Origin: a virus
Lineage: Duplodnaviria; Heunggongvirae; Uroviricota; Caudoviricetes
Reading direction: 5' to 3' (one strand)
Length of the DNA: 64,000 nt
IMG/VR virus record: IMGVR_UViG_2526164662_000021
Coordinates: 32,574-96,573 of that record
Within the stretch, counting starts at the first letter, position 1, and every line of letters begins with the position of its first letter. The notes below the pieces were generated by a model, which saw nothing but the letters and a program-made list of their open reading frames with translations, ran no database searches and had not been told where the DNA came from. The position numbers were made by a program, and so were the translations under genes. Shown here piece after piece: positions 53,608-61,293 of the stretch.

Positions 53608-54072
53608 ATGTTTCTTCATATCAATCCCGATTGGGCATCAGCTATTGCGGCATTTGGGTCAGCAATAGCTGCTTTTATTAGTTTGCGCACAAGTAAAAAG
53701 CTTGGATTATTCGATAAGGAAAAATTTTATAGTGAAGCATTGATAAACTTTGCTGATAGGGCAAATAAAATAGCAACAGGAAAAGCTGGATCAGACTGGG
53801 ATGTTAATGACGCAAGTAATATAATTCTTTCACTAAATGCCGCAAAAGAAACTATTGAAAGTGCGCCAAAACCTATTCGAGAGCAACTAAAACAATATTA
53901 CAAACATAATCTTTGCCATGAGATCATAACCGAATTAGAGGCTCACTCTCCCCCAGATTCAGTAATTGTAAGAGAACCATCAGAGTATGAAGGCAAGATC
54001 ATGGGATTGTGGGATGAGATTAAAATATTTCTGGGTTATACAGTGGTATCAGAAGCAGACCTTGAAGATTAA
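53608..54072 (+). CDS. membrane-anchored protein, 154 aa, AT-rich
   Basis: N-terminal TM WASAIAAFGSAIAAFISL. Confidence 0.5.
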   Translation: MFLHINPDWASAIAAFGSAIAAFISLRTSKKLGLFDKEKFYSEALINFADRANKIATGKAGSDWDVNDASNIILSLNAAKETIESAPKPIREQLKQYYKHNLCHEIITELEAHSPPDSVIVREPSEYEGKIMGLWDEIKIFLGYTVVSEADLED

Positions 54073-54216
54073 AGTTTGGTGTGACCACATCATTTCATCA
54101 ATGATGCCCGAAGTGGGGAGTTTGACGATTGTCCGGTGATTTAAGCTGCAAAGTGCTGGTGCTTTATGCTTGTGAAGTTTATAATTGTGTACACATAACG
54201 AGTACACGAGGTGTTT

Positions 54217-54438
54217 ATGCAATCCATTAACTTCCGTACCGCACGCGGCAACCTTAGCGAAGTGCTCAATAATGTCGAAGCAGGGGAAGAGGTTGAAATC
54301 ACCCGCAGAGGCCGTGAATCAGCCGTAATTGTCAGCAAGGCCACTTTCGAAGCCTATAAAAAAGCGGCGCTGGATGCCGAATTTGCATCCCTGTTTGACA
54401 CTCTGGACTCCACTAACAAGGAACTGGTTAACCGATAA
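54217..54438 (+). CDS. phd: antitoxin Phd, 73 aa
   Basis: [20 protein letters not shown]...; YefM/Phd family; 1-nt overlap with doc. Confidence 0.9.
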
Positions 54439-54818
54439 TGAGGCATATATCACCGGAAGAACTTATTGCGCTTCATGATGCGAATATAAGCCGCTACGGC
54501 GGCCTGCCGGGCATGTCAGATCCGGGCAGGGCAGAAGCCATTATCGGGAGAGTTCAGGCCAGAGTTGCCTACGAAGAGATCACCGACCTTTTCGAAGTCT
54601 CCGCCACCTACCTAGTGGCTACAGCGAGAGGGCATATATTCAATGATGCCAATAAGCGTACCGCGCTAAACAGCGCGCTGCTATTTCTACGCCGTAACGG
54701 GGTGCAGGTATTTGATTCACCTGAACTGGCAGACCTTACTGTAGGGGCTGCGACTGGCGAGATATCTGTATCTTCTGTCGCCGACACGTTACGTAGATTG
54801 TATGGTTCTGCGGAGTAG
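54438..54818 (+). CDS. doc: toxin Doc (Fic-fold kinase), 126 aa
   Basis: Fic-like motif [10 protein letters not shown]. Confidence 0.9.
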
Positions 54819-55029: not shown

Positions 55030-56073
55030 GTGAAAGCCGTAATTACTCCCTTTGTACAAAAAGAGCTTGGCGTCGCCACATTCAAAGTGGATCAGGAAGT
55101 CAGAAAGCTGGTGGAGGCTGGCCGTAAATTTATTATGGAGCCGGTGCCGCGTGAGTTAATCGAGCACATGGACGACGGCCTCGTTGTTTCCGAGCAAACT
55201 ATGGCAACAAATGAGGCGTTGCAGCCGTTTTTTAACAGCGATGAACTGTTTCGCCGTATTGGTGGAATTGACGCGCTGGTGGCGTGGTTGCGCAGGAAAG
55301 AGGGGAAATGCCAGGCCGCAGATCGTAGCTGGTGTGACAACCATATTGTCCACGCAGAACGAGACAATAGCGCGGTGTTGTTGTGCTGGCATCACGATAA
55401 CCATTACCGGATGCGTAGTTTTAATGAGCTGAAAGAAACGCTGCATAATAATCGCGTTAACTGGATACTGGATGTCGCCCGTCAGGAAATGGGGCTTTCA
55501 GATGGCCATGATTTAAGTATTCAGGAACTGTGCTGGTGGGCTTTCATGCGCGACATGATGCACCTGATGCCGGAAGAAGTCTGCCGTATATCAATAAATA
55601 AGATTAAGGCTGCAACGCAGGATAGCGGACCTATGAAAGAGGCGGATATTCGCCCGTATGACGATCGCGCTACAGCATATGTTCAGATGATGGAAGAACG
55701 CGCCGCGCCGATGCGTGCAAAAGTATGCCCTGTGGATGTTGACTCCGACCCTGGCATGGCGCATTTCAAAATACCAAAACTGCAATCGCTAAAATTACCT
55801 GAGTACATGGACTTTGTTGCTTCCCGTCCATGCTGTGGGTGTGGAGCTGCGGGAGCTGGCGCTCACATTACGCCTTATATCGTTCGTCATAGTCGATTAT
55901 GCGCGCATGACATTTACGCAATTCCTCTGTGCCAGTCATGCCAGCGTGATATTGAGCGTGACCGCGATAATTGGGAGAAGACGCACGGTAGGCTGGCGAT
56001 GCATCAACGATTGTTCTTTGATTACGCGCTTGGAGTCGGCGCTATCACAAGTCACTCGTCGAGTGTTAGATAA
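55030..56073 (+). CDS. Cys-rich protein (pdcB position), 347 aa
   Basis: C-terminal CCGCGAAGAG...[16 protein letters not shown]. Confidence 0.55.
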
Positions 56074-56074
56074 A

Positions 56075-56091
56075 ATTGCTCTAATGTATTG
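56075..56091 (+). promoter_or_regulatory. C1 operator-like site upstream of lpa (3 mismatches)
   Basis: ATTGCTCTAATgtATTg. Confidence 0.4.
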
Positions 56092-56161
56092 CTATTTCTT
56101 TAATCGAGGGTATTATATTCCACGTTGATTAGTTGACATGGGCTAATCAGTAGGTGACAGG

Positions 56162-56614
56162 ATGTTACTTAACTGGCAGGGACGCCACTTCATGGAAATA
56201 AATCACTCACGAATAACATCGTACGAGATTGCGGATTACATGATCCGCACTAAATCTCTTCTATCAGCGAAAGAACTCGCAGCAATTCTTGAAAAGGAAT
56301 ACCCGCATCTGGATGTCGATAAGCGCGATGTTTATCTGCGCTTAAAGGCTATTGCTGTGTCTAAGTATTCGTCTGTTTTGATTGATGACAGTACACGCCC
56401 ACGTAGATTTCAGATCCACTCTCTGAATCCTGAATTCTTTCGCCGTAGCCGCGCTCCGCGCCGGTTTGATGAAAAACTCCAGAACGAACTCTATATGACG
56501 CAGGACGAAAAGGAACGCCGGGAGCACCAGCCTTGGGTAATGGCGCGTCAACTTTTCAATAAGGTGGCCCGTCAGCACCGTCATTACGGTAATGCCACAT
56601 CCGCACGTATGTGA
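56162..56614 (+). CDS. lpa: late promoter activator Lpa-like (start may be Met at 56192)
   Basis: Position between pdcB and pacA; C1 operator upstream. Confidence 0.6.
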   Translation: MLLNWQGRHFMEINHSRITSYEIADYMIRTKSLLSAKELAAILEKEYPHLDVDKRDVYLRLKAIAVSKYSSVLIDDSTRPRRFQIHSLNPEFFRRSRAPRRFDEKLQNELYMTQDEKERREHQPWVMARQLFNKVARQHRHYGNATSARM

Positions 56615-57940
56615 CTGCTCCCCGCCCGGTTGGGCGAGGCTTCCCACATCTCAGGCCGCAACCGTCTGTACGACGGATTTACGCTGGCCTCCATGGGCAG
56701 AGACGACGAGTCCCGCCGCCTTTAGTTCCAGTATCCCTTTTTGCCGGATGTTGAGTGCCGCATTGATATCGCGGTCATGCTCTGCTTCACATTCAGGGCA
56801 TCGCCAGATGCGTTTATGAAGCGGCATTTCCGGCATTTTGTAACCACAACAATGGCACGTTTTCGAACTGGCAAACCACTGGTCGAGTTTTACCAGGTGA
56901 ACGCCTTTTTCCGCTGCCTTGTACTCCAGCTTTGTGATGAAGCTATGCCAGCCTGCATCACCTATTGCTCTTGCCAGATTGTGGTTTTTCATCATGTTGG
57001 CTGTTTTCAGCGTCTCGACAATTACCGCTTGGTTTTCGTCAACAATTGTACGAGAAAGTTTATGTTGAAAATCAGCACGGGCATTCGCTACCCGTTCGTG
57101 TATGGCCGCAAGACGGATTCTGGCCTTTTTACGATTCGCGCTTCCCTTTTGCTTGCGGGATAGCGCTTTTTGTTTGCGTCGCAGATTACGGCTGGCATTG
57201 ATGAGATGGCGGGGATTCGCAATTTTTGCCCGGTCAGACCTGATGGCATAGTGCTCAAGTCCCATATCCACACCAGTAATCTTTTCTTCCTCCAGATACG
57301 CAGGTTTCGCTGGTGTGGGAATACCGTCTTCACAAAGGATGGATGCGTAGTATTTCCCGGTGGCACTGCGAGTGATTGTTATGCTCGTCACTTTTCCCGT
57401 CATTACACGGTGTATACGCGCTTCTATCGGTGCCAGCTTAGGAATTTTGATGGCATTCTCCAGTACTTTAATCCCGACACAATGGTAGCTCGATTGTTTC
57501 CCATGTTTACGTTTAAACGTCGGGAACCGGGCTTTCAGCTTCGGATTAAAAAAGTTGGAAAACGCCACATCAAGATTAATCACCGCCTGTTGCAATGCCA
57601 TTGAATCAAATTCTTTAAGCCAGGCATACTTACGGGACTTCTTCGCCACAGACAACAACGGTTTTAAATCTTTACGCGGACTTAAATTCACTCCGTGTCG
57701 CTGGTAAGCGTGTTTTTTGATGTGAAGAGCTTTGTTGTACGCAAAACGCACGGCGCCGAACTGGGCGTTGAGATACTCAGCCTGTTTAGTGGTTGGATAG
57801 ATGCGTACTTTTGTCGCTCTTAACATAGTCACCGCTCATTGATACAGGTTTTTATGCTAACACCGTAATGATTTTTTTTTAAAGCCCTGTGGGCTTTCCC
57901 GCCTTTCCTCCCCGCCCGCATTGGGCGAGGGTTCTCGGCG
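56600..57940 (-). mobile_element. IS200/IS605-family insertion sequence carrying tnpB only (IS1341-like)
   Basis: Both ends carry subterminal hairpins CCCCGCCCG-GTT-GGGCGAGG (56620-56640) and CCCCGCCCG-CATT-GGGCGAGG (57910-57932). Confidence 0.7.
56651..57832 (-). CDS. tnpB: TnpB (RuvC-like nuclease with C-terminal zinc finger), 393 aa
   Basis: N-terminus RIYPTTKQAEYLNAQFGAVRFAYN; C-terminus CHCCGYKMP...CPECEAEHDRDINAALNI. Confidence 0.9.
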   Translation of the reverse strand: MTMLRATKVRIYPTTKQAEYLNAQFGAVRFAYNKALHIKKHAYQRHGVNLSPRKDLKPLLSVAKKSRKYAWLKEFDSMALQQAVINLDVAFSNFFNPKLKARFPTFKRKHGKQSSYHCVGIKVLENAIKIPKLAPIEARIHRVMTGKVTSITITRSATGKYYASILCEDGIPTPAKPAYLEEEKITGVDMGLEHYAIRSDRAKIANPRHLINASRNLRRKQKALSRKQKGSANRKKARIRLAAIHERVANARADFQHKLSRTIVDENQAVIVETLKTANMMKNHNLARAIGDAGWHSFITKLEYKAAEKGVHLVKLDQWFASSKTCHCCGYKMPEMPLHKRIWRCPECEAEHDRDINAALNIRQKGILELKAAGLVVSAHGGQRKSVVQTVAA

Positions 57941-57975
57941 GTTGTTTGCTGATTGCTTGCCCGTTCCGGGCCTTT

Positions 57976-57998
57976 TGACATGTGACTTTCGTTACCCT
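57976..57998 (+). promoter_or_regulatory. possible late-promoter-like element upstream of pacA (weak)
   Basis: GACATGTGACTTTCGTTACCCTC shares CA..TGACT core but poor -10. Confidence 0.25.
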
Positions 57999-58033
57999 CG
58001 CGTCAAAAAGAGTTTTTACGAAAGGAAGCATAA

Positions 58034-59227
58034 GTGACCTGGGACGATCACAAGAAGAATTTTGCTCGCCTGGCGCGAGATGGTGGTTACACCATCGCAC
58101 AGTATGCCGCCGAGTTTAATCTTAACCCTAATACCGCACGTCGTTATCTCCGTGCCTTCAAAGAAGACACCAGGACTGCGGACAGCCGCAAGCCAAATAA
58201 GCCAGTCAGGAAGCCACTAAAAAGCATGATCATTGATCACTCTAATGATCAACATGCAGGTGATCATATTGCGGCTGAAATAGCGGAAAAACAAAGAGTT
58301 AATGCCGTTGTCAGTGCCGCAGTCGAGAATGCGAAGCGCCAAAATAAGCGCATAAATGATCGTTCAGATGATCATGACGTGATCACCCGCGCCCACCGGA
58401 CCTTACGTGATCGCCTGGAACGCGACACCCTGGATGATGATGGTGAACGCTTTGAATTCGAAGCTGGCGATTACCTGATAGATAACGTTGAAGCGCGGAA
58501 GGCCGCGCGCGCTATGTTGCGTCGGTCCGGGGCCGATGTTCTGGAAACCACTCTTCTTGAAAAGTCTCTTTCTCATCTCCTTATGCTGGAGAACGCCAGG
58601 GATACGTGTATTCGCCTGGTGCAGGAAATGCGCGATCAGCAAAAAGACGATGATGAAGGTACTCCGCCTGAATACCGTATCGCGAGCATGCTAAACAGCT
58701 GTTCCGCGCAGATAAGCAGCCTGATCAACACCATTTACAGCATCCGGAATAACTATCGAAAAGAAAGCCGGGAGGCGGAAAAGCACGCTTTGTCTATGGG
58801 GCAAGCTGGCATTGTTAAGCTGGCATACGAACGAAAGCGTGAAAATAACTGGTCAGTGCTGGAAGCGGCTGAATTCATCGAGGCGCATGGAGGAAAAGTG
58901 CCGCCCCTGATGCTGGAGCAAATCAAAGCCGATCTGCGTGCTCCTAAGACCAATACCGATGACGAGGAAAACCAAACAGCATCTGGCGCTCCATCACTTG
59001 AAGATCTGGATAAAATCGCGCGAGAACGGGCCGCCAGCCGCCGCGCTGATGCCGCATTGTGGATTGAGCATCGTAGAGAAGAAATTGCCGATATCGTCGA
59101 TACAGGCGGTTATGGTGATGTCGATGCGGAAGGCATATCAAACGAAGCATGGCTTGAACAGGATCTGGACGAAGACGAGGAGGAAGACGAAGAAGTTACC
59201 CGCAAACTGTACGGGGATGATGATTAA
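58034..59227 (+). CDS. pacA: terminase small subunit PacA, 397 aa (GTG start)
   Basis: 397-aa ORF containing the pac site; immediately upstream of pacB. Confidence 0.85.
58226..58387. other. pac: pac packaging site: two clusters of TGATCA(C/G) hexamers (4 + 3) carrying 7 GATC Dam sites
   Basis: ATGATCATTGATCACTCTAATGATCAACATGCAGGTGATCAT at 58226-58267 and ATGATCGTTCAGATGATCATGACGTGATCAC at 58356-58387. Confidence 0.8.
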
Positions 59228-60711
59228 TGGCCAGAAGTTGCGTAACGGACCCACGTTGGCGCGAGCTGGTGGCGCTATATCGTTATGACTGGATTGCGGC
59301 CGCTGATGTGTTGTTTGGGAAGACACCAACCTGGCAGCAGGATGAGATCATTGAGTCCACGCAGCAGGACGGCAGTTGGACAAGTGTGACCTCCGGCCAT
59401 GGTACTGGTAAGTCGGATATGACGAGTATTATTGCAATACTCTTCATCATGTTTTTCCCCGGCGCTCGCGTCATTCTGGTCGCTAACAAAAGACAGCAAG
59501 TCCTTGATGGTATTTTCAAATACATAAAGAGCAATTGGGCTACTGCTGTTAGCAGATTCCCGTGGTTGTCGAAGTATTTCATTCTTACAGAAACGTCTTT
59601 TTTTGAGGTGACTGGCAAGGGTGTTTGGACAATATTGATAAAGTCCTGTCGCCCCGGAAATGAGGAGGCGTTGGCTGGTGAACACGCCGATCATCTCTTG
59701 TATATCATCGACGAAGCGTCGGGTGTGAGTGATAAAGCATTCAGTGTGATAACAGGTGCGCTGACCGGTAAGGATAACCGTATTCTGCTTCTTTCCCAGC
59801 CTACGCGACCTTCAGGCTATTTCTACGATTCACACCACAGACTAGCTATTCGCCCGGGAAATCCTGATGGATTGTTTACTGCGATAATACTGAATAGTGA
59901 AGAATCTCCGCTTGTAGATGCAAAATTTATACGAGCAAAACTTGCGGAGTATGGCGGTCGTGATAACCCCATGTACATGATCAAAGTACGTGGTGAATTT
60001 CCCAAATCGCAAGATGGCTTTCTTCTTGGTCGTGATGAGGTTGAGCGGGCGACGCGGCGAAAGGTCAAGATTGCCAAAGGATGGGGCTGGGTTGCATGTG
60101 TTGACGTTGCTGGTGGCACAGGACGAGATAAGTCCGTTATTAATATCATGATGGTGTCCGGCCAGCGAAATAAACGCCGTGTAATCAACTATCGTATGCT
60201 GGAATACACAGACGTTACAGAAACGCAGTTAGCCGCCAAGATTTTCGCAGAATGTAACCCAGAACGGTTCCCGAACATAACCATAGCTATTGATGGCGAT
60301 GGCTTGGGGAAATCGACGGCTGATCTGATGTACGAACGCTATGGTATTACCGTCCAGCGTATCCGCTGGGGTAAAAAGATGCACAGCCGTGAAGATAAAA
60401 GCCTTTATTTCGATATGCGCGCTTTCGCGAATATTCAGGCGGCAGAAGCTGTAAAATCAGGGCGTATGCGGCTTGATAAGGGGGCTGCGACTATAGAGGA
60501 AGCATCAAAGATACCGGTCGGGATAAATTCCGCAGGTCAATGGAAGGTGATGTCAAAGGAAGATATGAAGAAAAAACTCAACCTGCACTCACCGGACCAT
60601 TGGGATACATATTGTTTCGCTATGTTGGCGAACTATGTTCCCCAAGATGAAGTGCTTAGCGTCGAAGACGAAGCGCAGGTTGATGAAGCTCTGGCATGGC
60701 TTAATGAGTAA
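59227..60711 (+). CDS. pacB: terminase large subunit PacB, 494 aa
   Basis: Walker A GHGTGKS, Walker [12 protein letters not shown]. Confidence 0.85.
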
Positions 60712-60733: not shown

Positions 60734-60974
60734 GTTTTTTGACTGCCGATGTTACATTGAACCTGACCTCTTGCGCCTTGAGGCATTTTCGGTTTATGCT
60801 TATCAGGCACCTCATTAAAACGGGTGCCGGGATTGGAACCCCGGATAATGTCAAAGGCGACACAGACGCCAAAAGCGTCTTTTTTTGTGTCATGCCATCG
60901 CACGGCCATACGTAGCGTTTAGCTCAGAGATCAATGGTAGTGCTGGCTGGGCTGCCGAAAGGCAGGCCGGTTCC

Positions 60975-61050
60975 CTTTGACGCCGGTAGTTCCAACCCAG
61001 TCAGTGCTACCGCCATTGAGATTGGAACCTCACGCGGTAGCTCCTTAACT
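60975..61050 (+). ncRNA. second c4-like antisense RNA candidate (approximate)
   Basis: GTTCCAACCC and CAGTGCTACCGCC (60987-61012) are complementary to ATTGGAACC and GCGGTAGC in the leader and RBS region of the downstream icd-like gene. Confidence 0.3.
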
Positions 61051-61071
61051 TAGTCAAAGGAGGCTGCCATT

Positions 61072-61293
61072 ATGGCTACTATCCCTACCCCAACTCATCC
61101 TGAATTTATCTGGCGCTTTTACTCCTGCCAGAAACGTCACTATCACTTCGTTATTGCACCGACAGAAGATGAGGCTCGCTCTCAGCTTCCTGATGCACCC
61201 TGTATTTTCTCCGCCCGTTTTTCTACTGATTCGCGCAATTCTCTCAGTTACTGGTGCCTCCCTGTTAACGCTTCTGCTCAGGAGGGACTATGA
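61072..61293 (+). CDS. Icd-like protein, second copy, 73 aa
   Basis: Paralog of 11277-11498 (shared PEFIWRFYSC.K.HYHFVIA.TEDEARSQLPD). Confidence 0.65.
   Translation: MATIPTPTHPEFIWRFYSCQKRHYHFVIAPTEDEARSQLPDAPCIFSARFSTDSRNSLSYWCLPVNASAQEGL

What the first reader, a model, noticed from the sequence alone, without database searches (positions are those of the whole stretch)
56600..57940. IS200/IS605-family TnpB element inserted between lpa and pacA, with candidate omega-RNA region
A 393-aa TnpB (RuvC-like plus zinc finger) with no tnpA is bounded by near-identical subterminal hairpins. TnpB proteins are RNA-guided nucleases whose guide RNA derives from the 3' end of tnpB and the adjacent element end, here about 56600-56800 on the minus strand, so any guide would match the 3' end of lpa. 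The insertion also separates pacA from its probable native promoter: only a weak late-promoter-like element remains at 57976.
Basis: partly seen in the sequence, partly recalled or inferred. Interest (0 to 1): 0.45.

Follow-up and report, generated by a model that had tools for sequence, protein, structure and literature searches.

The report
TnpB-only insertion sequence in P1-like phage
A small, already well-understood kind of jumping gene (an ISEc46-related element that carries only the RNA-guided nuclease TnpB) sits precisely in the last codon of the lpa gene of a P1-like phage-plasmid. It looks intact, its guide RNA would recognise P1 relatives that lack it, and it does not cut pacA off from its promoter.

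Summary
The window is a P1-like phage-plasmid. Relative to P1 and P7 it carries a 1,338-bp insertion at 56611-57948, between lpa and pacA. The insert is a non-autonomous IS200/IS605 element related to ISEc46 (79% nt, 83% aa), with tnpA cleanly missing.

TnpB (391 aa from ATG, 393 from GTG) looks intact:
- It keeps the RuvC triad (D189/E273/D355) and the CxxC..CxxC zinc finger.
- It is under purifying selection (dN/dS 0.08-0.17).

The ends and the guide RNA are well defined:
- Comparing 65 copies fixes the right end at ...GAGCAGTCAC (56611).
- It also reveals a five-helix RNA scaffold (56611-56721, minus strand) with strong covariation: 18 of 35 pairs carry compensatory changes.
- All 118 unoccupied P1 sites in IMG/VR carry the ATCAG motif, and 117 of them match the 16-nt guide perfectly.

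The P1-annotated late promoter LPpac lies downstream of the insertion and is intact at 57980-57998. The insertion instead splits the last lpa codon (Ile to Met), and the element's end supplies a new stop codon.

Overall this is an ordinary member of a known kind. One mildly interesting point is that the element is identical in plasmids whose flanks differ by 1-2%.

The parts
56611..57948 (-). Whole insertion sequence (1,338 bp). It is a tnpB-only, non-autonomous relative of ISEc46 in the IS200/IS605 family. The transposon top strand and tnpB sense strand are the window minus strand.
   Evidence: It is absent from P1 and P7. The right-end limit comes from 65 copies whose flanks diverge immediately after ...GAGCAGTCAC. 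The left-end limit comes from the P1 empty site ...AATCAG|ATACGTG....
56651..57826 (-). tnpB coding sequence (391 aa from ATG 57826; the alternative GTG at 57832 gives 393 aa).
   Evidence: Pfam and NCBIfam hits. E=8e-79 and 42% identity to ISDra2 TnpB structures 8H1J/8BF8. D189/E273/D355 and C326/C329/C345/C348 align to ISDra2 D191/E278/D361 and its zinc-finger cysteines. dN/dS is 0.08-0.17 against E. coli relatives.
56611..56721 (-). Omega-RNA scaffold: the part supported by covariation. Helices lie at 56721-56715/56707-56701, 56697-56693/56647-56643, 56689-56683/56659-56654, 56676-56672/56666-56662 and 56639-56632/56627-56620. The 5' limit is unknown and may reach about 56780.
   Evidence: RNAalifold on 65 copies gives 35 pairs, 18 with compensatory changes. 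97.8% of cells are paired, against 33-57% when the partners are slid. The covariation score is 0.405 against 0.04-0.12, and 0 of 500 shuffles reach the observed values. The single-sequence minimum-free-energy fold reproduces the helices.
56595..56610 (-). Predicted 16-nt guide (5'-AUACGUGCGGAUGUGG-3'), transcribed from the DNA flanking the right end. It is antisense to the last codons of lpa.
   Evidence: Its position is inferred by analogy with ISDra2 reRNA, in which the last ~16 nt come from flanking DNA (PMC8612924).
56611..56650 (-). Right end (RE): subterminal hairpin 56639-56620 and the invariant terminal motif GAGCAGTCAC, ending at 56611.
57833..57948 (-). Left end (LE): subterminal hairpin 57930-57910, the 5' foot GAGAAC (DNA guide for the target motif), and the stem-loop 57881-57897. 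That stem-loop is the leftover terminator of the deleted tnpA.
57949..57953 (-). Transposon-adjacent motif (TAM) 5'-ATCAG-3' on the minus strand (core TCAG), immediately 5' of the left end.
   Evidence: The four copies with this LE type have ATCAG, ATCAG, TTCAG and TTCAG. The rest of the family has TTAG. The P1 empty site places the boundary after the G.
56162..56614 (+). lpa (late promoter activator). Its last codon is changed from ATC (Ile) to ATG (Met). The G of that codon (56611) and the stop codon TGA (56612-56614) come from the element's right end.
   Evidence: Pfam BPP1_LPA E=3e-57; comparison with P1.
57980..57998 (+). LPpac, the native Lpa-dependent late promoter of pacA. It is intact and lies downstream of the insertion.
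   Evidence: P1 annotation and 19/19 identity.
58034..59227 (+). pacA (terminase small subunit, containing pac). It is uninterrupted.

Best explanation
This is a non-autonomous IS200/IS605 insertion sequence. It is an ISEc46-type element from which tnpA has been cleanly lost. It inserted by the single-strand 'peel-and-paste' route immediately 3' of the motif ATCAG in a P1-like phage-plasmid, without a target duplication, and it splits the last codon of lpa.

The element still encodes an intact RNA-guided nuclease, TnpB. Overlapping the tnpB 3' end and the right end, it also encodes a structured omega-RNA whose 3' guide is read from the adjacent lpa sequence.

Most likely mode of action (inferred from ISDra2 and Geobacillus work, not shown here): TnpB with its omega-RNA recognises ATCAG followed by ATACGTGCGGATGTGG. 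That is the joint recreated if the element is excised by an ISEc46-type TnpA supplied in trans. The same sequence is present in P1 relatives that lack the element. TnpB cuts it, and repair from an occupied copy restores or copies the element.

Consequences for the phage are probably small. Lpa keeps its length with a C-terminal Ile-to-Met change, and the pacA late promoter is untouched.
For: Shown:
- The insertion is absent from P1 and P7, and the flanks are 99% identical.
- TnpB domains and family cut-offs are met.
- The catalytic triad and zinc finger are intact relative to ISDra2, and dN/dS is 0.08-0.17.
- The LE and RE hairpins and termini are shared with ISEc46 and about 70 gammaproteobacterial copies.
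- tnpA is precisely missing relative to ISEc46 and is absent from the window.
- The RNA structure has covariation far above controls.
- All 118 IS-free P1 sites in IMG/VR contain ATCAG. 117 of them continue with a perfect match to the 16-nt guide and beyond, and 1 has a single mismatch at guide position 15.
- The same insertion is found in 7 natural P1-like plasmids of E. coli and E. albertii, so it is tolerated.

Inferred from the literature:
- Guide length and origin, the TAM requirement and the D191 dependence come from PMC8612924.
- The retention or homing role, and the prevalence of tnpB-only elements, come from PMC10055086.
Against: - No expression or activity data are available.
- No consensus sigma-70 promoter for tnpB was found in the left end.
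- No tnpA is present in the window, so excision depends on a chromosomal ISEc46-type TnpA that was not examined.
- The TAM of this sub-lineage (TCAG) differs from the family's usual TTAG. The TnpB protein does not co-vary with it: two TnpBs differing by 4 aa sit in elements of either TAM type. It is therefore unproven that this TnpB accepts TCAG.
Confidence: 0.8

Rival explanations
1. Inert passenger. The element is stranded without a transposase, and TnpB with its omega-RNA is either not expressed or cannot use the TCAG motif. In that case it does nothing in the phage beyond the neutral Ile-to-Met change in Lpa.
For: No tnpA in the window. No recognisable promoter for tnpB. The TAM type is uncoupled from the TnpB sequence. 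The insertion is rare: 0 of 117 IMG/VR P1-like contigs and 0 of 21 phage records.
Against: The ORF, catalytic residues and RNA helices are intact. There is purifying selection across copies and covariation. The element is identical in several plasmids, so it is young rather than decaying.
Confidence: 0.25
2. Inter-phage weapon or gene drive. In a cell that also receives an IS-free P1 relative, TnpB cuts the rival at the lpa/pacA junction. It either destroys the rival or converts it to the occupied allele by recombination.
For: All 118 IS-free sites sampled carry the TAM. 117 of them match the guide region perfectly, and 1 has a single mismatch at guide position 15. The element has 0 differences in 1,339 bp among three E. 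coli plasmids, while the flanks next to it differ by 3-32 substitutions (Fisher p from 9.1e-6 to 5.5e-9). Identity ends about 120-155 bp outside the element.
Against: The same pattern arises if a single recent insertion had its flanks replaced by ordinary recombination with the large IS-free P1 pool. P1 backbones are visibly mosaic here. There is no activity data, and the insertion remains rare.
Confidence: 0.15
3. One reading: the insertion uncouples pacA from its promoter and impairs packaging.
For: The insertion does block any read-through from Plpa. The retained tnpA terminator stem-loop (57881-57897) faces that direction.
Against: LPpac, the promoter annotated for pacA in P1, lies downstream of the insertion and is identical. 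Seven natural plasmids from three countries and two species keep the insertion.
Confidence: 0.07
4. Domesticated nuclease-dead TnpB (TldR-like) acting as an RNA-guided repressor.
For: None specific, beyond the location in a phage next to regulatory genes.
Against: The RuvC triad is intact and the protein is full length. The guide's own locus lacks an adjacent TAM, because the TAM is on the other side of the element. The element has complete transposon ends.
Confidence: 0.02

Closest known systems
ISEc46 (IS200/IS605 family, IS605 group; E. coli). The name is taken from RefSeq tnpA annotation and from the phage RCS47 record.
   Same: Same RE terminus and hairpin, LE hairpin, tnpB orientation and tnpA terminator. 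An ISEc46 'orfB' copy without tnpA is already annotated in the P1-like phage RCS47, next to repL.
   Different: tnpB is only 79% nt and 83% aa identical, so by the usual IS naming thresholds it is a distinct element. tnpA is absent. The LE foot and target motif are GAGAAC/TCAG instead of GTAAAC/TTAG. The insertion site is different.
ISDra2 TnpB with its reRNA/omega-RNA (Deinococcus radiodurans; PDB 8H1J, 8BF8, 8EXA)
   Same: 42% identical over 370 residues. Same catalytic triad and zinc finger. The RNA overlaps the tnpB 3' end and RE, and the guide comes from the flank.
   Different: The TAM there is TTGAT. ISDra2 carries its own tnpA. Activity is shown for ISDra2 and only inferred here.
Geobacillus stearothermophilus ISGst tnpB-only elements (transposon retention and homing model)
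   Same: Non-autonomous tnpB-only elements mobilised in trans. The donor joint equals TAM plus the flank matching the guide. An LE DNA guide pairs with the TAM.
   Different: Different host and sequence family. The retention experiment was not done for this element.
90.7%-identical copies in the leading region of ~85-117 kb E. coli plasmids, between ardA and psiA
   Same: Closest independent insertions. They are tnpB-only and have the same LE type and ATCAG motif.
   Different: Different replicon and guide, and 9% sequence divergence.

Membership tests
IS200/IS605 insertion sequences | Subterminal imperfect palindromes at both ends, in direct orientation, rather than terminal inverted repeats | tested here: met
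   Hairpins at 56639-56620 and 57930-57910. They are conserved with compensatory changes across about 65 copies.
IS200/IS605 insertion sequences | Insertion 3' of a short conserved motif, with no target-site duplication | tested here: met
   The P1 empty site ...AATCAG|ATACGTG... is reconstituted exactly by removing 56611-57948. Copies are flanked by T(C/T)AG on the LE side.
IS200/IS605 insertion sequences | Y1 HUH transposase TnpA encoded in the element | tested here: not met
   tnpA is absent from the element and from the window, so the element is a non-autonomous derivative. Full-length relatives carry tnpA.
ISEc46 itself (same IS name) | Near-identity to the reference element. The usual IS naming thresholds are about 95% aa or 90% nt (from my own knowledge of ISfinder practice). 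| tested here: not met
   79% nt and 82.8% aa to copies whose tnpA RefSeq labels ISEc46. ISfinder itself could not be queried.
TnpB RNA-guided endonucleases | Protein family membership above curated thresholds | tested here: met
   NCBIfam guided_TnpB, 347 bits against a cut-off of 100. Three Pfam domains are above gathering scores.
TnpB RNA-guided endonucleases | Intact RuvC D-E-D triad and CxxC..CxxC zinc finger | tested here: met
   D189/E273/D355 and C326/C329/C345/C348 align to ISDra2 D191/E278/D361 and its cysteines.
TnpB RNA-guided endonucleases | Structured omega-RNA encoded at the tnpB 3' end and RE | tested here: met
   Five helices; 18 of 35 pairs carry compensatory changes; controls are far lower. 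No Rfam family matches.
TnpB RNA-guided endonucleases | RNA is made and bound, and DNA cleavage depends on the TAM and the guide | not testable with these tools
   Needs RNA-seq or RIP and interference assays.
TldR (nuclease-dead TnpB-derived regulators) | Loss of RuvC catalytic residues or a C-terminal truncation, with no transposon ends | tested here: not met
   The triad is intact, the protein is full length, and LE and RE are complete.
IS607 family | Serine recombinase TnpA and an IS607-type TnpB | tested here: not met
   NCBIfam IS607_TnpB scores 183 bits against a cut-off of 350. There is no serine recombinase next to the element.

The most novel reading that the evidence does not exclude
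The element works as an RNA-guided gene drive or exclusion device among P1-like phage-plasmids. Its guide is fixed on the conserved lpa 3' end, and the ATCAG motif and target are present in essentially all IS-free relatives. TnpB would therefore cut any co-resident or superinfecting P1 that lacks the element, and would either eliminate it or convert it. That would explain why an identical element sits on backbones that differ 1-2% right next to it.
Probability: 0.15. Interest if true: 0.55.

Novelty: new member of a known kind. Interest (0 to 1): 0.22.

Why it matters
Mostly it does not. This is a routine IS200/IS605 insertion that RefSeq already labels as an RNA-guided endonuclease.

It is a clean natural example in which all parts of the TnpB retention model can be read from sequence:
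- exact ends;
- an empty site in 118 relatives;
- the TAM;
- the guide;
- an RNA scaffold supported by covariation.

P1 is experimentally tractable, so it would be a convenient system for testing whether TnpB elements spread between co-resident phage-plasmids by homing. It also corrects the idea that pacA has lost its promoter.

Tried and rejected
1. Rfam scan of 56000-58600 at permissive thresholds gave only a chance snoRNA hit (E=0.9). There is no curated omega-RNA family.

2. My first reading of the junctions suggested a 5-bp loss (ATCAG) relative to P1. I rejected this once copy comparison showed that the RE includes ...TCAC and that the TAM includes the G. The insertion is scarless. The only flank difference from P1 is one copy rather than two of a TGAT tandem repeat, which is also seen in 1 of 118 empty sites.

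3. I searched for TnpB residues that co-vary with the TAM type (TCAG vs TTAG) and found none. LE type and TnpB phylogeny are uncoupled.

4. The consensus promoter scan found Plpa but no promoter for tnpB. This is uninformative rather than negative.

5. The occupied junction was searched for in IMG/VR and gave 0 hits.

6. Literature searches for TnpB in phage-plasmids or for ISEc46 function found nothing specific to this insertion.

7. ISfinder could not be queried. I did not use the structure prediction or large protein searches, because the sequence match to solved TnpB structures was already decisive.

Full report
**Context.** The window around the finding is a P1-like phage-plasmid. It carries phd/doc (54211-54818), pdcB (55030-56073), lpa (56162-56614; Pfam BPP1_LPA E=3e-57), pacA (58034-59227) and pacB. 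A megablast of 56000-58600 against 50,697 phage records hit 21 P1-like records (P1, P7, RCS47, SJ46 and others) at 96-99% identity. None covered more than 49% of the query: all lack the central ~1.34 kb. The P1 reference annotation was fetched for the same region.

**Observation.** The insert contains one long ORF on the minus strand, 57832..56651.
- It has Pfam HTH_OrfB_IS605, OrfB_IS605 and Cas12f1-like TNB domains. It also passes NCBIfam guided_TnpB at 347 bits against a cut-off of 100.
- RefSeq annotates the same gene in identical plasmids from the ATG at 57826 (391 aa), as 'RNA-guided endonuclease InsQ/TnpB family protein'.
- Against solved structures it matches ISDra2 TnpB at E=8e-79, with 42% identity over 370 residues.
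- D189, E273 and D355 align with the ISDra2 catalytic D191, E278 and D361. The four zinc-finger cysteines are kept.
- Compared with E. coli relatives, dN/dS is 0.08-0.17.
- No Y1 transposase is encoded anywhere in the window, and the element and its hairpins are single-copy.

**Family and ends.** In complete E. coli genomes, 738 records carry a relative.
- Three P1-like plasmids carry the same insertion at 99.5% identity.
- Many ~85-117 kb plasmids have a 90.7%-identical copy between ardA and psiA.
- The common chromosomal form, at 79% identity, has a divergent tnpA that RefSeq labels 'ISEc46 family'.
- Alignment with ISEc46 shows that tnpA is cleanly missing here. The tnpB upstream region and the tnpA terminator stem-loop (57881-57897) are retained.
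- A scan of one genome per species returned 80 further loci in Photorhabdus, Serratia, Aeromonas, Vibrio, Idiomarina and others.
- In about 70 copies the sequence is conserved up to ...GAGCAGTCAC and diverges immediately afterwards. This fixes the right end at window 56611.
- On the other side, copies share the hairpin CCTCGCCC...GGGCGGGG and a leader preceded by TTAG. In four copies including this one, the leader is preceded by TCAG instead.

**Insertion site.** With the right end fixed, the P1 sequence ...GGCAAGCAATCAATCAG|ATACGTGCGG... (minus strand) places the left boundary after the G.
- The element is 56611-57948 and the TAM is ATCAG (57953-57949, minus strand).
- Removing the element recreates the P1 site exactly.
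- A pattern search of IMG/VR found 117 contigs with 118 unoccupied sites. Of these, 117 read CTGATTGATT and one reads CTGATT, as in this window. The only flank difference from P1 is thus the copy number of a TGAT repeat.
- The insertion lies between the second and third base of the last lpa codon (P1 90439/90440). ATC (Ile) becomes ATG (Met), and the stop codon at 56612-56614 is supplied by the element.

**Omega-RNA.** I aligned the last 170 nt of 65 non-identical copies.
- RNAalifold predicts 35 pairs in six helices, and 18 pairs carry compensatory double changes.
- For that structure, 97.8% of cells are standard pairs, against 33-57% when partners are slid by 1-3 columns.
- The covariation score is 0.405, against 0.04-0.12 for the slid controls. 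None of 500 shuffles reaches the observed values.
- Four covarying helices lie inside or span the end of the tnpB coding sequence, in window coordinates: 56721-56715/56707-56701, 56697-56693/56647-56643, 56689-56683/56659-56654 and 56676-56672/56666-56662. They cannot be explained by the DNA hairpin that the transposase uses.
- The fifth helix is the RE hairpin (56639-56632/56627-56620).
- The sixth, long-range helix never varies, so it is uninformative.
- The window sequence alone folds into the same helices.
- Rfam has no matching family.

By analogy with ISDra2, where the RNA is ~150 nt and its last ~16 nt come from flanking DNA (PMC8612924), the guide is 56610-56595 on the minus strand: AUACGUGCGGAUGUGG. 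All 118 empty sites have ATCAG. In 117 of them it is followed by a perfect match extending at least 25 nt. The remaining site has a single mismatch at guide position 15.

**Mechanism.** The shown facts fit the established model (PMC8612924; PMC10055086).
- A TnpA supplied in trans would excise the top strand and recreate the ATCAG-ATACG... joint.
- TnpB with its omega-RNA would cut that joint.
- Recombination with an occupied copy would restore the element.

Steps that remain inferred are transcription of tnpB and the RNA, acceptance of TCAG by this TnpB, and availability of a compatible TnpA.

One caveat concerns the TAM. The LE type (TCAG with foot GAGAAC, versus TTAG with foot GTAAAC) co-changes as expected for DNA-guided target choice by TnpA. 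It is not congruent with the TnpB sequence: two TnpBs that differ by only 4 residues sit in elements of opposite type, and no residue tracks the TAM.

**pacA promoter.** P1's annotated late promoter LPpac (90475-90493) lies between the insertion point and pacA. It is identical in the window at 57980-57998. The insertion can only remove read-through from Plpa. Seven natural plasmids carry the same junction: three from E. coli and four from E. albertii. The records inspected come from chicken and human isolates in Switzerland, South Korea and Poland and from wild birds. The 'separated from its promoter' reading is not supported.

**Population pattern.** I aligned 7.6 kb around the insertion in the window and four of these plasmids.
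- The element has 0 differences in 1,339 bp among the three E. coli plasmids.
- The adjacent 1,338 bp on the left differ by 11-32 positions, and the 852 bp on the right differ by 3-14 positions (Fisher p from 9.1e-6 to 5.5e-9).
- The nearest flank differences lie about 155 bp and 121 bp outside the ends.
- This means the occupied allele sits on recombinant backbones. It is compatible with homing. It is equally expected from a single recent insertion followed by ordinary flank replacement in a mosaic phage family.
- The occupied junction was not found in IMG/VR, with 0 hits against 117 contigs carrying an empty site.

**Comparison and verdict.** The closest named element is ISEc46, but at 79% nt and 83% aa this is a distinct relative. 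A tnpB-only ISEc46 copy is already annotated in the P1-like phage RCS47, next to repL, so there is direct precedent. The functional model is that of ISDra2 and the ISGst elements. I rate this a new member of a known kind, of low interest. The identification itself is about 0.9 certain, and the proposed activity about 0.6.

Noticed in passing
window 57949-57957; L094 (IMG/VR contig): The lpa-pacA spacer contains a TGAT tandem repeat. There are two copies in 117 of 118 IS-free P1-like sites, and one copy in this window and in one IS-free contig. The variation lies just outside the TAM and initially mimicked an imprecise insertion.
   Followed up: yes
window 57931-57936 and 57949-57953; loci L003-L008 and L126-L205: Two LE types exist in the family. 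TAM TTAG goes with hairpin foot GTAAAC and 3' side ATATAAG. TAM TCAG goes with foot GAGAAC and 3' side AGGAAAG. The T-to-C change in the motif is accompanied by an A-to-G change in the foot, as expected for DNA-guided target choice. The LE type is shuffled relative to the TnpB phylogeny, so the elements are mosaic.
   Followed up: partly
window 59325-60075 (5' part of pacB) and 60825-61075: These are sharp blocks of 24-38% divergence (59-95 differences per 250 bp) between this window (with the E. albertii plasmid pEA18_2) and the E. coli plasmids carrying the same insertion. They are embedded in sequence that is otherwise 97-99% identical, which indicates mosaic replacement inside the large terminase gene.
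   Followed up: no
L003 (NZ_AP027555.1) and about 90 similar E. coli plasmids: The closest independent copies of the element (90.7% identical) sit in a fixed position between ardA and psiA in the leading region of ~85-117 kb plasmids. Their guide would therefore target that conserved plasmid region.
   Followed up: no
L006 (NZ_CP074805.1) and L210 (phage RCS47, FO818745.1 56263-57432): A second, independent insertion site of this IS family occurs in P1-like phage-plasmids, next to repL/kilA. In RCS47 it is annotated as ISEc46 orfB.
   Followed up: partly
window 57900-57948 (minus strand) and LE of related loci: An outer stem brackets the LE hairpin (CCGCC ... GGCGG here; CGCC/GGCG, CCCC/GGGG and CCGC/GCGG in relatives). 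It appears to covary, which suggests a larger conserved LE fold than the single hairpin.
   Followed up: no
window 53608-54072: There is a 154-aa ORF upstream of phd. I did not check any family assignment, and it lies in a segment that aligns poorly with the related plasmids (gap in the alignments between about 53504 and 54075).
   Followed up: no
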